From: the human T2T-CHM13v2.0 reference genome, Homo sapiens
Reading direction: 5' to 3' (one strand)
DNA length: 64,000 nt
NCBI RefSeq assembly: GCF_009914755.1
Contig: NC_060932.1
Part shown: positions 4,899-62,312 of the stretch, piece by piece
Layout of the letters: every line of letters begins with the position of its first letter
How positions within the stretch are numbered: the stretch's first letter is position 1
Translations under genes and position numbers: made by a program
The notes under the pieces: model-generated
Database searches by the model: none
What the model saw: only the letters and a program-made list of their open reading frames with translations
What the model was told of the DNA's origin: nothing

Positions 4899-5696
4899 TT
4901 GTAAAGACCATCAACACTACAAAGAAACTGCATAAACTAATGAGCAAAATAACCAGCTAGCATCATAATGACAGGATCAAATTCACACATAACAATATTA
5001 ACCTTAAACGTAAATGGACTGAATGCCCCAATTAAAAGACACAGACTGGCAAATTGGATAAAGAGTCAAGACCCATCAGTGTGCTGTATTCAGGAGACCC
5101 ATCTCATGTGCAAAGACACACATAGGCTCAAAATAAACAGATGGAGGAATATTAACGAAGAAAATGGAAAGCAAAAAAAGGCAGGGGTTGCAATCCTAGT
5201 CTCTGATAAAACAGACTTTAAACCAACAGAGATGAAAAGAGACAAAGAAAGGTATTACATAATGGTAAAGGGATCAATTCACCAAGAGCTAACTATCCTA
5301 AATATATAAGCACCCAATACAGGAGCACGCAGATTCATAAAGCAAGTTCTTAGAGACCTACAAAGAGACTTAAAATCTCCCATATTATTGTGTGGGAGTC
5401 TAACACTCCACTGTCAATATCAGACAGATCAATGAGACGGAAAATTAACTAGGATATTCAGGACCTGAACTCAGATCTGGACCAAGCAGACCTAATAGAC
5501 ATCTACAGAACTCTCCACCCCAAATCAATAGAATACACATTCTTGTCAGCATCTCATTATGCTTATTCTAAAATTAACCACATAATTGGAAGTAAAACAC
5601 TCCTCAGCAAATGCAAAAGGATGGAAGTCATAACAAACGGCCTCTCTGACCACAATGCAATCAAATTAGAACTCAGGATTAAGAAACTCACTCAAT

Positions 5697-7578: not shown

Positions 7579-11680
<4,102 letters not shown>

Positions 11681-54300: not shown

Positions 54301-54469
54301 CCCGCCCCGCGCCCCGCCCCCCGCCGCGCCCCTCCCGCGCCCGCCGCCCCGCCCCTCCCGCGCCCGCCGCCGTCGTAGCGCCTAGGCGGGGCCTCTCGTA
54401 GCGACGCCCCCAGGGGGGCAGAACGCGTGCGCACGCGCGTGCGAACGCGCGTGCGCGGGCGGTGTTTGA

Positions 54470-58956: not shown

Positions 58957-60617
58957 TAAATAGTGAAATCAAGATCAGAGCCCACTAAGCCAGCCGCTCT
59001 TCTTGGTTTTTGGTTCTCATGTCCTGGAGTCCCTCTCACCTTGACCAAACCAAAGACCTCCTGAAGCATCACTTGGGCTCACCACTTCCACTGAGGTGGA
59101 TTTGAGTCATTGATCTGGGCAGAGCCTTCTGGAGTCGGGGTTTCTCTCGTCTCAAGGCAGAGGTCCTACAGAAGTTAGTGGTCTTGGCCAAGCGGACATT
59201 GATGCAACTGTGGCAAAATGGGACCTATAAGTCAGAGCTGATGACCTACTCGTGGAAAAGTACAGGGAGAAGTTTTACGAGGGGTCCATATTTTAACCTT
59301 TAACAGTGTTGTTCACGTTAACCCTTGTAATGGATGCTATTCCTTGCCTGATACCTGTCCTTTCCACCCAGCCTGCTTTTCTTTAATGCTGGTAAGCGGT
59401 CTCCCCTCCAGGCATTAGGCTGCACTTGAAGTTGATCTGCTCCTGTGAAGTGCATAGGGGTTCAACGATGCCTTGCTGCACACTGAATACCAGAGCCGAG
59501 TGCTCTTGCCAGCCCCTTAATACCATGTTCAACCTGATTTGTCAACAGGTTAACAGAAATGTGTTTGGAGATGTGTAAGTACACTGGAGTCTTGATATAT
59601 AGCATGACCAGAAGTGTGGGTCACGAGGGCACACATGGGCATGGCAGCCCCTCAGTTGTCATCCATAGCATCTATCAGAGAGCACGCCTGTGTGCCCTGA
59701 ACTCACGCACCAGGGGCAGCATGACACGGGAGCCGTTTCTCTAGGGAGAAACATGAGTACCAGTGCTGTCTTTCCCCACATCAGATTTGTGTTCAAACAG
59801 AGCTAGTCTGTGTTAAAGCTGGAGTGTTAATGGAGAAACAGACAAACTCTTGTACTATTTTGCCTTTGATTATAGACCATTATCAAAGCAAGAGGTTAGG
59901 AGTGATCAGTGCTCCCTTGTCATTTGCATCAGGTCCCAGGACTCACATTCTTTGCATGCTTGTGTGAGCTAGTGTTTTCCATGTCCTTGGGGTGTGGTCA
60001 CAGCGACCTTTTTGCCTGAATAATGATTGGCAAGTTTTTGCTGAATGGCCACAGTGAATGGCTCCTCCTATGCTTCTGGCTCTAGTCCTGCTGTCTCACA
60101 ATTGAGTCAATTCTGGGGTCTCTTCCGGAGAGCAGAGGGTCCAGCTGCGTGGGGAGTGTGGTGTTCCCAGCCCTGCTGTCTGTTCGCTGGGTGTGAGTGA
60201 CAAGAGTCCCCACTCCCTGCAGAAATTCCATTACCTGGACAAGTCCCTGCACACTGGGTGAGGGGGGACCAGGCGGGGACCTGAGTCTTTGTCGGTAGCC
60301 GTTCCTATGTCATCGTTGTGTGCCTGGGTTTCCTGCCGTGTAAAAGGAAAGGCTGGAATCAATCACACGTCCCTTCCAGTTTTTCAAGAACTTGAGACTC
60401 TGGTGTTTGTAGCTTTGCAGACAGGTTCAGGCTTAGGTAAAGTGGACCCTTTCAGCATGATTCAGCATCTGTTCATGTGTTCCATAAATGTTTCTTGAGG
60501 GCCCACTGTGGACCCAGTGCTGCATCAGGCAGAGGAGATGCTGTGATGGAAGGCAGGTGTGGTCTGTGCCCTCACAGAGCTTGCTGTCCAGTGGAGGTGA
60601 GGATTCAGTAAGCACTT

Positions 60618-61367
60618 GTCCTATGTGCACCCCACCAGCAAGTCTCCCGCCTTCACAGCAGTCCCAATCAGTCACACAATTCAGGCATCGCAGGATGAAA
60701 CATATTTAAGTCATTACACTGGGATACACTTTGTTACAGCACTGAACTTCTGCTGTTTGATCCTAGTTAACACCCCAAACACCAAAAATGAGTGTTTGGG
60801 GTATGCATCAGGAGCTTGAAGCAAAGGTACTTAACCCAGTCCATGGGTCTCCCCTACTCTGGGAGGGCATCTGGAGCAAATGGCCTTTAAGTGAGGACCT
60901 GACAGGTAAGATGGTGCCAACTTGGGGAAGGTAAAGACTTTTCCAGGAGAGGGCCCAGCAGCTGCAGAGACCCAGAGGTGCAGGAGAGTGTGATGTTTTC
61001 AAAGGACTGGAAGGTTATAGCATGGAGTGAGATGCAGGGGATGGTGAGAGTGGAACCAGAGAAGGTATAATTGATAATCACATTCTGCAGAGTGCCGTAG
61101 GTCACAGTGAGGAGTTCAGGCCTTCCCTGCTGCTGTTGAGAAGGCATTCCATGGCCTTAACCAAGGAATAACATGAAGAACAGGAGCACAGGTTTTCGTG
61201 ACATCCTTGGGGTGTTAACTAGGATCAAACAGCAGAAGTTCAGTGCTGTAACAAAGTGTATCCCAGTGTAATGACTTAAATATGTTTCATCCTGCGATGC
61301 CTGAATTGTGTGACTGATTGGGACTGCTGTGAAGGCGGGAGACTTGCTGGTGGGGTGCACATAGGAC
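60618..61367. repeat. Perfect 161-bp inverted repeat (arms 60618-60778 and 61207-61367; 428-bp spacer)
   Basis: Arms compared by eye are exact reverse complements. The same peptide HPTSKSPAFTAVPISHTIQASQDETY... appears in ORFs on both strands. Confidence 0.96.
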
Positions 61368-61622
61368 GAGCATAGGACCGTGTGTTCCTGCCAGCACCGC
61401 TCCGGCCTCCTGTTCGTGGCTGGACCGCTCTAGCTTTAGTTTCATTTTCTTTCCTCCTATACTGTCAGTGGATGTTACCTTGGTATGTTTATGCATCCTT
61501 GTAAGTTCATTAAGAATAAGGTACAGAATTAAATATTTTGTAGTTTAATGTTTGCGTTACTGGGGTAGTGATGTGTCCTTGTTTCTATCGAGTCAACACA
61601 AAATGAATGATCTTTCTTTTAG

Positions 61623-62312
<690 letters not shown>

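What the first reader, a model, noticed from the sequence alone, without database searches (positions are those of the whole stretch)
60618..61367. Perfect 161-bp non-Alu inverted repeat ~255 bp upstream of the CLN8 exon 2 acceptor
Seen: arms 60618-60778 and 61207-61367 are exact reverse complements around a 428-bp spacer and resemble no repeat family I recognise. Inference: 100% identity means very recent origin or ongoing arm-to-arm gene conversion. Such repeats can drive recurrent inversion of the spacer. In CLN8 pre-mRNA they would form a 161-bp perfect dsRNA stem (ADAR/PKR/Dicer-sized substrate) beside the only acceptor leading into the start-codon exon. L2-like sequence flanks the left arm on both sides in one orientation, which suggests the left arm is the inserted copy and the spacer is in ancestral orientation.
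Basis: partly seen in the sequence, partly recalled or inferred. Interest (0 to 1): 0.8.

Follow-up and report, generated by a model that had tools for sequence, protein, structure and literature searches.

The report
Young inverted duplication in CLN8 intron
A 161-base stretch of CLN8 intron 1 was copied backwards into an old repeat 428 bases upstream, most likely by a copying slip, leaving a perfect hairpin-forming repeat that is probably harmless.

Summary
Arms 60618-60778 and 61207-61367 are exact reverse complements (161 nt; 164 nt with one mismatch) around a 428-nt spacer. In the whole CHM13 assembly the arm has only these two copies.

It is not a transposon or a known RNA family, and the spacer is not inverted. 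Profiles built from copies of an old dispersed repeat (L2-like; the name is recalled) match the left flank (60465-60614) and the spacer (60861-60981). The homology runs on to about 61175, on one strand and in order. With the left arm cut out in silico the two matches fuse into one (E 3e-22). A deletion scan peaks at the arm's start.

An 11-bp hairpin straddles the inner junction, and a 7-mer is shared with the source's first bases. This points to a microhomology-primed template switch or snap-back repair.

Perfect identity bounds the age only to under about 17-19 Myr, so gene conversion is not needed. The 161-bp RNA stem is predicted but lies wholly in the intron. Its function, editing, polymorphism and presence in other assemblies could not be tested. 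Interest is modest.

The parts
60618..60778 (+). Left arm: the derived, inverted copy (templated insertion) of the right arm. With one mismatch the repeat extends to 60615.
   Evidence: Exact reverse complement of 61207-61367. It interrupts an otherwise continuous old repeat.
60779..61206 (+). 428-nt spacer in ancestral orientation. Most of it continues the old L2-like repeat that also forms the left flank.
   Evidence: Profile hits 60861-60981, 60933-61127 / 60931-61168 and 60881-61175, all on the + strand and collinear with the left-flank hit.
61207..61367 (+). Right arm: the inferred source (template) of the duplication. It lies about 30 nt beyond the last detectable homology to the old repeat.
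   Evidence: No repeat-profile or Smith-Waterman signal above a reversed-sequence control for 61176-61367. Only two genomic copies.
60454..60614 (+). Left flank: part of an old dispersed repeat (L2-like, name recalled). Its homology runs up to 0-3 nt before the left arm.
   Evidence: Motif at 60569-60594 has 157 genome matches against 0 for the reversed control. Profile hits 60454-60604, 60467-60603 and 60465-60614 at E 1.6e-14.
60772..60802 (.). 11-bp perfect hairpin (60772-60782 / 60792-60802, 9-nt loop) straddling the inner junction of the left arm. Seven stem bases come from the arm and four from the flank.
   Evidence: only 5 loci in 64 kb have a perfect stem of at least 11 bp with a 3-20 nt loop, and this is one of them.
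60796..60802 (+). 7-mer TTGGGGT, 17 nt right of the insertion point. It is identical to the first 7 nt of the right arm (61207-61213) and is the candidate microhomology for the template switch.
   Evidence: 7 occurrences on the + strand in 64 kb. One is here and one is the first 7 nt of the source.
61360..61378 (+). Direct 8-mer repeat CATAGGAC, 3 nt, CATAGGAC at the outer end of the source. The copy stops exactly after the first 8-mer. Its meaning is unresolved.
   Evidence: 88 comparable pairs (at least 3 letters) in 64 kb, so chance is not excluded.
61623..62288 (+). CLN8 exon 2, which holds the start codon at 61746. This is context only: its acceptor lies 255 nt downstream of the right arm.
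   Evidence: Annotation supplied with the finding. Distance.

Best explanation
The feature is a single-locus inverted duplication that is evolutionarily young (most likely under about 10 Myr, bound about 17-19 Myr). A 161-nt stretch of CLN8 intron 1 (now the right arm) was copied in reverse complement and inserted 428 nt upstream, into an old L2-like repeat fragment. That insertion is the left arm. The most likely mechanism is a template switch during replication or break repair, of four-point order 1-4-3-2, which is an inverted templated insertion.

Inferred steps:
- A 3' end on the minus strand, ending opposite 60779, snapped back on a 4-nt complement (GTGT on ACAC).
- It copied 7 nt (TTGGGGT).
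- It re-annealed through that 7-mer at the second identical site 411 nt away, opposite 61207-61213.
- It copied about 154 more nt.
- It was rejoined to the left side with at most 2 nt of homology.

Shown here: the exact inverted identity, the single locus, the interruption of a collinear old repeat, and the junction hairpin with the shared 7-mer. Inferred: the order of steps, the enzyme, the age and neutrality.

When CLN8 is transcribed, the arms should form a perfect 161-bp intronic RNA duplex. That duplex is a plausible nuclear ADAR substrate removed with the intron. No function is indicated.
For: (1) Exact 161-nt reverse complementarity, 164 nt with one mismatch.
(2) Only two copies of the arm in the 3.1-Gb assembly, both at this locus.
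(3) The left flank and the spacer both carry motifs of high-copy old repeats: 157 matches against 0 control, and 414 against 0.
(4) In copies that hold both motif regions, the two lie about 205-255 nt apart. The window distance is 372 nt, or 211 nt without the arm.
(5) A profile built from 59 other copies hits 60465-60614 (model 70-214, E 1.6e-14) and 60861-60981 (model 318-442, E 8.7e-8), on the same strand and in order.
(6) With the arm removed in silico there is one hit over model 71-443, E 3e-22, score 67.1 against 41.9 and 19.6.
(7) In a 161-nt deletion scan over 44 start positions, the score peaks at start 60615 (70.5) and 60618 (67.1).
(8) The old-repeat homology ends 0-3 nt before the repeat's outer edge. 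This is automatic if the arm is the insert and a coincidence otherwise.
(9) The 11-bp junction hairpin and the shared 7-mer are rare in the window: 5 such hairpin loci and 7 copies of the 7-mer in 64 kb.
(10) The event type is described in print. Order 1-4-3-2 'creates an inverted repeat' and made up 31% of high-confidence human-chimp events (PMC5453318, passages).
Against: - No outgroup or second human assembly could be consulted, so polarity and age rest on the old-repeat proxy and on rate assumptions.
- The deletion scan has limited resolution. A second plateau at starts 60698-60728 scores 54-63, because the repeat is poorly conserved between model positions 214 and 318.
- The outer junction shows only 2 nt of homology with a terminal mismatch.
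- The two-step snap-back model was fitted after seeing the sequence.
- The copied tract of 161 nt exceeds the maximum of 128 nt (median 12) in a great-ape gold-standard set (PMC7954356, passage). Snap-back inserts in end-joining are, by recall, usually far shorter.
- The window's own site does not match the second motif as written, because it has a 1-nt deletion.
- The name 'L2' is recalled. It was not checked against a repeat library.
Confidence: 0.72

Rival explanations
1. An older inverted duplication (tens of Myr) whose arms are kept identical by recurrent arm-to-arm gene conversion, as in larger palindromes.
For: Perfect identity over 161 nt, with both CpGs kept in both arms. The structural origin is equally compatible with this reading.
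Against: Identity needs no conversion. P(0 differences) is about 0.32-0.35 at 6.5 Myr and reaches 5% only at about 17-19 Myr. The junction features outside the arms are still perfect (4-nt ACAC/GTGT and the 7-mer at 60796). By recall, 161-nt tracts 428 nt apart are short for efficient conversion. Nothing here tests conversion directly.
Confidence: 0.1
2. Reverse polarity. The left arm is an older foreign insertion into the old repeat, and the right arm is its recent inverted copy.
For: Old-repeat continuity shows only that the left arm is foreign to that repeat. The right arm lies in sequence with no detectable repeat homology, so its own status cannot be read from context. The 8-mer direct repeat at the right arm's outer end could be a junction scar.
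Against: The recent copy would have to end within 0-3 nt of the old insertion's boundary. The arm has no other copy in the genome that could have supplied an old insertion. The 7-mer and hairpin signature fits a 3' end at the left site. No homology was seen at the right arm's inner junction (sequence read).
Confidence: 0.08
3. A selected functional element. The intronic 161-bp dsRNA regulates CLN8 (exon 2 splicing, nuclear retention or editing-dependent control) or yields small RNAs.
For: A very stable predicted stem: MFE -475.9 kcal/mol, z -31.5 against 20 shuffles. It lies 255 nt from the only acceptor leading into the coding exon. Template switching is reported to create hairpins and new miRNAs (PMC8794818 and PMC10710096, search-listing abstracts only).
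Against: No Rfam family matches 60000-62000 at E up to 1. There is no exon between the arms. The stem is wholly intronic and would be spliced out. It is below the >300 bp that favours MDA5 (PMC11838218, section 10). No paper linking CLN8 to an inverted repeat or to intronic editing was found. A perfect stem fits recency as well as it fits selection.
Confidence: 0.05
4. An assembly or polishing artefact of this one assembly.
For: Only one assembly could be examined. Scans of other collections for an arm 24-mer found nothing, though those collections are not expected to hold human DNA.
Against: The structure has clean junctions with a mechanistic signature. By recall, the whole 750-nt unit is far shorter than the long reads used for such assemblies, and artefactual palindromes usually span whole reads rather than a 161-nt insert.
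Confidence: 0.03

Closest known systems
Short-range template-switch mutations (four-point model, order 1-4-3-2; Loytynoja & Goldman 2017, PMC5453318; Walker et al. 2021, PMC7954356)
   Same: A nearby tract is copied in reverse complement and inserted in one event, creating a perfect inverted repeat that can fold as an RNA hairpin. The source lies downstream of the insertion point, which gives order 1-4-3-2 (passages).
   Different: Size and reach. The copy is 161 nt, taken from 428-589 nt away. The great-ape gold set has a median of 12 nt and a maximum of 128 nt. The ancestral state is inferred here from an interrupted old repeat, not from an outgroup alignment.
Synthesis-dependent microhomology-mediated end joining / polymerase-theta 'snap-back' templated insertions (PMC2943611, PMC5728401, PMC4912351; search-listing abstracts only)
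   Same: A 3' end primes on a short nearby complement, copies flanking sequence in inverted orientation, and uses newly made microhomology to re-anneal. The 4-nt and 7-nt junction features fit this.
   Different: By recall, reported inserts are mostly a few to tens of nucleotides. Here about 154-161 nt were copied after a jump of 411 nt. This fits a more processive replicative switch (FoSTeS/MMBIR-like) at least as well.
Inverted Alu pairs as intronic dsRNA and A-to-I editing substrates
   Same: They work alike: two inverted copies in one intron pair in the pre-mRNA. The window holds many imperfect inverted pairs (the other 24 printed pairs are 73-92% complementary).
   Different: The arms are single-locus sequence, not Alu. 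They are perfectly paired and only 161 bp long. No editing data could be examined.
MITE-like DNA transposon with long terminal inverted repeats
   Same: Two inverted arms flank a short internal segment in a 750-nt unit.
   Different: There are no other genomic copies and no target-site duplication in the flanking bases. The internal segment is host old-repeat sequence collinear with the left flank.
Inversions flanked by inverted duplications (staggered-break model; four-point orders with an inverted spacer)
   Same: These also leave a pair of inverted repeats around a segment.
   Different: The spacer here is not inverted relative to the left flank.

Membership tests
Template-switch inverted templated insertion (four-point order 1-4-3-2) | The inserted tract is the exact reverse complement of a nearby tract | tested here: met
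   161 of 161 nt complementary, source 428 nt away
Template-switch inverted templated insertion (four-point order 1-4-3-2) | The tract is absent from the ancestral sequence at the insertion point | tested here: met
   By proxy only. An old dispersed repeat is collinear across the left arm and aligns as one hit when the arm is removed. No outgroup genome was available.
Template-switch inverted templated insertion (four-point order 1-4-3-2) | Microhomology at the switch points | tested here: inconclusive
   Inner junction: a shared 7-mer and an 11-bp hairpin, both rare in the window. Outer junction: only 2 nt with a mismatch. No multiple-testing-proof statistic was computed.
Template-switch inverted templated insertion (four-point order 1-4-3-2) | Size within the range of catalogued short-range events | tested here: not met
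   161 nt against a maximum of 128 nt in the great-ape gold set (PMC7954356, passage). This is a property of that catalogue, not a defining limit of the mechanism.
DNA transposon / MITE | Multiple dispersed copies | tested here: not met
   The arm occurs twice in the genome, both at this locus
DNA transposon / MITE | Target-site duplication flanking the unit | tested here: not met
   The 8 nt before 60618 and the 8 nt after 61367 differ (sequence)
DNA transposon / MITE | The internal segment belongs to the element, not to the host context | tested here: not met
   The spacer continues the old repeat of the left flank
Inversion with flanking inverted duplications | The spacer is inverted relative to its flanks | tested here: not met
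   Flank and spacer match the repeat profile on the same strand and in order
Known structured RNA family (miRNA precursor or other Rfam family) | Match to a curated covariance model | tested here: not met
   0 matches at E up to 1 in 60000-62000 on both strands
Edited intronic dsRNA (works like an inverted Alu pair) | A long duplex is predicted in the sense transcript | tested here: met
   The MFE structure pairs the arms fully: -475.9 kcal/mol, z -31.5
Edited intronic dsRNA (works like an inverted Alu pair) | A-to-I clusters or duplex-mapping reads on the arms | not testable with these tools
   No RNA-seq or editing database was on hand. Paper searches gave nothing specific.
Palindrome kept by gene conversion | Arms identical within species but diverged between species | not testable with these tools
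   No primate genomes were held. The rate calculation shows identity is expected without conversion for several Myr.

The most novel reading that the evidence does not exclude
The left arm is a human-lineage (possibly still polymorphic) templated insertion, and the largest clean short-range template-switch event yet described. The perfect 161-bp intronic duplex it created is heavily edited or diced, and it measurably alters CLN8 exon 1-2 splicing or transcript level. That would make it a natural allele series for studying how a new dsRNA is tolerated in a disease gene.
Probability: 0.06. Interest if true: 0.6.

Novelty: new member of a known kind. Interest (0 to 1): 0.3.

Why it matters
The locus is a clean, large example of how one copying error can create a long perfect hairpin in a gene in a single step. 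The polarity could be read without an outgroup, from an interrupted ancient repeat. It lies between catalogued short template switches (up to 128 nt) and kilobase-scale FoSTeS/MMBIR rearrangements, and its junction keeps a readable microhomology signature.

In practice, the perfect arms can confuse short-read mapping and variant calling in CLN8 intron 1, near the coding exon of a neuronal ceroid lipofuscinosis gene. If the insertion is polymorphic, it offers a natural test of whether a 161-bp intronic dsRNA has any effect. Nothing found here suggests it is pathogenic or functional.

Tried and rejected
- Self-BLAST of 60000-61999 against the window (word 7, E 1e-2) gave only self and arm-to-arm hits, so there were no in-window relatives to date or name the flanks.
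- Pairwise BLAST of the region against the fetched repeat copies gave only short hits around the anchoring motifs. Profiles were needed.
- The first global MAFFT profile was contaminated by Alu insertions in the flanks of the copies. A second profile with Alus excised showed conservation only around the motif. Both were dropped in favour of iterated local nhmmer profiles.
- Searching for the first motif upstream of the second by substitutions only found it in 1 of 30 copies, and weakly. Indel-tolerant BLAST was needed.
- I tried to show that the right arm is itself old-repeat sequence. Profiles from 4 references, one of which gave no hit at all, and Smith-Waterman against 30 copies with a reversed control, gave no signal beyond about 61175. 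The right arm's ancestry is therefore not positively shown.
- Rfam gave nothing.
- Scans of genome contigs and viral contigs for an arm 24-mer, a long shot for stray primate DNA, gave nothing.
- Paper searches for CLN8 with 'inverted repeat' or 'RNA editing' and 'intron' gave nothing about this locus. In PMC9405548 the phrase 'inverted repeat' refers to GLA, and the CLN8 deletions it mentions are not tied to this site. CLN8 is not mentioned in the dsRNAscan preprint text, and its supplementary tables were not seen.
One paper search failed on term length and was not repeated.
- The transposon, staggered-break inversion and known-RNA-family readings were rejected on the tests listed under Membership tests.

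Full report
**1. Observation**

- A script confirms that 60618-60778 equals the reverse complement of 61207-61367 over all 161 nt.
- The repeat finder extends the pair to 60615-60778 / 61207-61370, which is 164 nt with one mismatch, with 428 nt between the arms.
- The unit is 750 nt. Each arm has 46.6% G+C and two CpGs. 255 nt separate the right arm from the annotated exon 2 start at 61623.
- The window has 64 inverted pairs of at least 60 nt within 5 kb, of which the 25 longest were printed. This pair, at 99%, is the only printed one above 92% complementarity. The other 24 printed lie at 73-92%, and many of them coincide with Alu-like stretches flagged.

**2. Not a repeat family, a known RNA or a transposon**

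- The window's whole genome could be searched (3.1 Gb in 24 contigs; the window is C8:1488001-1552000). The arm has exactly two matches, the two arms themselves.
- Region 60400-61600 finds only itself plus the arm-to-arm matches, even at E up to 10. That first look is word-based and would miss old, diverged repeats.
- Rfam gives no match in 60000-62000 at E up to 1.
- The bases flanking the unit show no target-site duplication.

**3. Which arm is the copy**

No outgroup genome is held, so I used an internal proxy: an ancient dispersed repeat.
- A motif in the left flank (60569-60594) has 157 matches in the genome with up to 1 mismatch, against 0 for the reversed control.
- A second motif, modelled on the spacer near 60941, has 414 matches against 0. 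It was partly recalled, and the window's own site has a 1-nt deletion relative to it.
- A third motif has 197 matches against 0.
- I fetched 29 + 30 + 30 copies with 1.5-kb flanks. Indel-tolerant BLAST between the first two sets shows that, in copies holding both regions, the first lies about 205-255 nt upstream of the second on the same strand.
- In the window the distance is 372 nt, or 211 nt once the 161-nt arm is subtracted.
- An iterated nhmmer profile built on 59 copies, with the window excluded, hits 60465-60614 (model 70-214, E 1.6e-14) and 60861-60981 (model 318-442, E 8.7e-8). Both hits are on the + strand.
- With the left arm sliced out in a script, the same profile gives one hit over model 71-443 at E 3e-22, score 67.1.
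- A scan that deletes 161 nt at each of 44 start positions peaks at 60615 (70.5) and 60618 (67.1). A lower plateau at 60698-60728 scores 54-63. Scores elsewhere are 41-44, or 19.6 where the deletion removes the left-flank match, and one intermediate start (60588) scores 48.5. The resolution is limited because the repeat is poorly conserved between model positions 214 and 318.
- Further profiles and Smith-Waterman alignments carry the same repeat, on the same strand, on to about 61126-61175.
- Nothing above a reversed-sequence control is seen in 61176-61367 or 61368-61560.

Conclusion: the left flank and the spacer are one old element in one orientation, and the left arm interrupts it. The right arm lies about 30 nt past its last detectable homology.

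The old-repeat homology stops 0-3 nt before the inverted repeat begins. The simplest reading is therefore that the entire foreign block is the copy, so the left arm is derived and the right arm is the source. The alternative is that the left arm is an older foreign insert that was later copied to the right. That needs a boundary coincidence, and I give it about 8%.

I call the repeat 'L2-like' from recall only. No repeat library was available.

**4. Mechanism**

In the four-point template-switch model, this is order 1-4-3-2 (leave at 60617, copy 61367 to 61207 complemented, resume at 60779). That type 'creates an inverted repeat' and made up 31% of high-confidence human-chimp events (PMC5453318, passages).

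The junctions carry a signature.
- The last 7 nt of the left arm plus the next 4 flank bases (60772-60782) pair perfectly with 60792-60802 across a 9-nt loop. Only 5 loci in the 64-kb window have such a hairpin (stem at least 11 bp, loop 3-20 nt).
- The underlying cause is a 7-mer, TTGGGGT. It occurs 7 times on the + strand of the window. One copy lies 17 nt right of the insertion point, and one forms the first 7 nt of the source.

From this I infer the following sequence of steps:
- A minus-strand 3' end, either a nascent strand or a resected break end, ended opposite 60779.
- It snapped back on the 4-nt complement.
- It copied the 7-mer.
- It re-annealed at the second identical site 411 nt away.
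- It copied about 154 nt more.
- It was rejoined to the left side with at most 2 nt of homology. The 164-nt extension with one mismatch is consistent with this.

This matches serial microhomology-primed switching (FoSTeS/MMBIR-like), or snap-back synthesis in alternative end joining (PMC2943611, PMC5728401, PMC4912351; abstracts in the search listing only).

Caveats:
- The model was fitted after the fact.
- The 8-mer direct repeat at 61360/61371 is unexplained, and 88 comparable pairs exist in the window.
- 161 nt exceeds the maximum of 128 nt (median 12) in a great-ape gold set (PMC7954356, passage).

**5. Age and conversion**

I assumed rates of 0.5e-9 per site per year, or 0.4e-9 for non-CpG and 6e-9 for CpG sites.
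- The two arms gain a first difference after 5.8-6.2 Myr on average.
- P(no difference) is 0.5 at about 4 Myr and 0.32-0.35 at 6.5 Myr.
- It reaches 0.05 at 17-19 Myr.

Perfect identity therefore fits anything from a segregating human variant to an insertion shared with other apes. It does not call for gene conversion.

**6. Consequences**

- Folded as RNA, 60600-61385 pairs the arms completely. The MFE is -475.9 kcal/mol against a shuffle mean of -251.2, z -31.5, and 0 of 20 shuffles folded as well.
- The duplex is entirely inside intron 1, with no exon between the arms, and it ends 255 nt before the acceptor.
- A genome-wide prediction study counts 31,017 of 5,134,754 predicted human dsRNAs as more than 96% paired. 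It notes that MDA5 favours duplexes over 300 bp, and that highly paired duplexes involving an intron are removed by splicing (PMC11838218, section 10). That text does not mention CLN8, and its supplements were not seen.
- A nuclear ADAR substrate is therefore plausible. An innate-immune or splicing role is unsupported.
- Inversion of the spacer by recombination between 161-nt arms is possible in principle. In this haplotype the spacer is in the ancestral orientation.
- No paper linking CLN8 to an inverted repeat or to intronic editing was found.

**7. Verdict**

This is a real, single-locus, probably neutral inverted templated insertion. The functional ideas are untested.

- presence in other human and ape assemblies
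- the repeat-library name of the old repeat
- RNA editing or small-RNA evidence
- any splicing effect

Interest is 0.3.

Noticed in passing
window 4929-5287 and 7799-8157: A 359-nt inverted pair at 92% complementarity with a 2511-nt spacer. It is the longest printed pair in the window and, after the CLN8 intron pair, the best-matched among the 25 printed. It lies in stretches listed as masked repeats. Its family was not identified.
   Followed up: no
window 54429-54456: A perfect 12-bp G+C-rich hairpin with a 4-nt loop, made of alternating CG-rich sequence. It ends about 20 nt upstream of the annotated CLN8 exon 1 start (54478), so it sits in the core promoter and CpG-island area.
   Followed up: no
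window 60941-60969: The window's copy of the old repeat has a 1-nt deletion in the best-conserved motif of that repeat, so it is not itself a hit to the pattern.
   Followed up: yes
L074-L077 (G000 C1: about 121.2, 143.1, 144.2 and 205.5 Mb): Four fetched copies of the old repeat on contig 1 carry the same one-mismatch variant of the motif, and their match extents are the same to within a few bases. They look like paralogous copies inside a segmental duplication rather than independent insertions. They were kept in the profiles.
   Followed up: no
window, about 40 places between 4.5 kb and 63.5 kb: The first, contaminated profile lit up dozens of Alu-like segments on both strands. These include several in CLN8 intron 1 (about 56.8-59.1 kb), so the intron already carries imperfect Alu inverted-repeat potential besides the perfect pair.
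   Followed up: partly
window 61360-61378: An 8-mer direct repeat separated by 3 nt lies exactly at the outer end of the source arm. It could be a small tandem duplication or a second junction scar. It is unexplained.
   Followed up: partly
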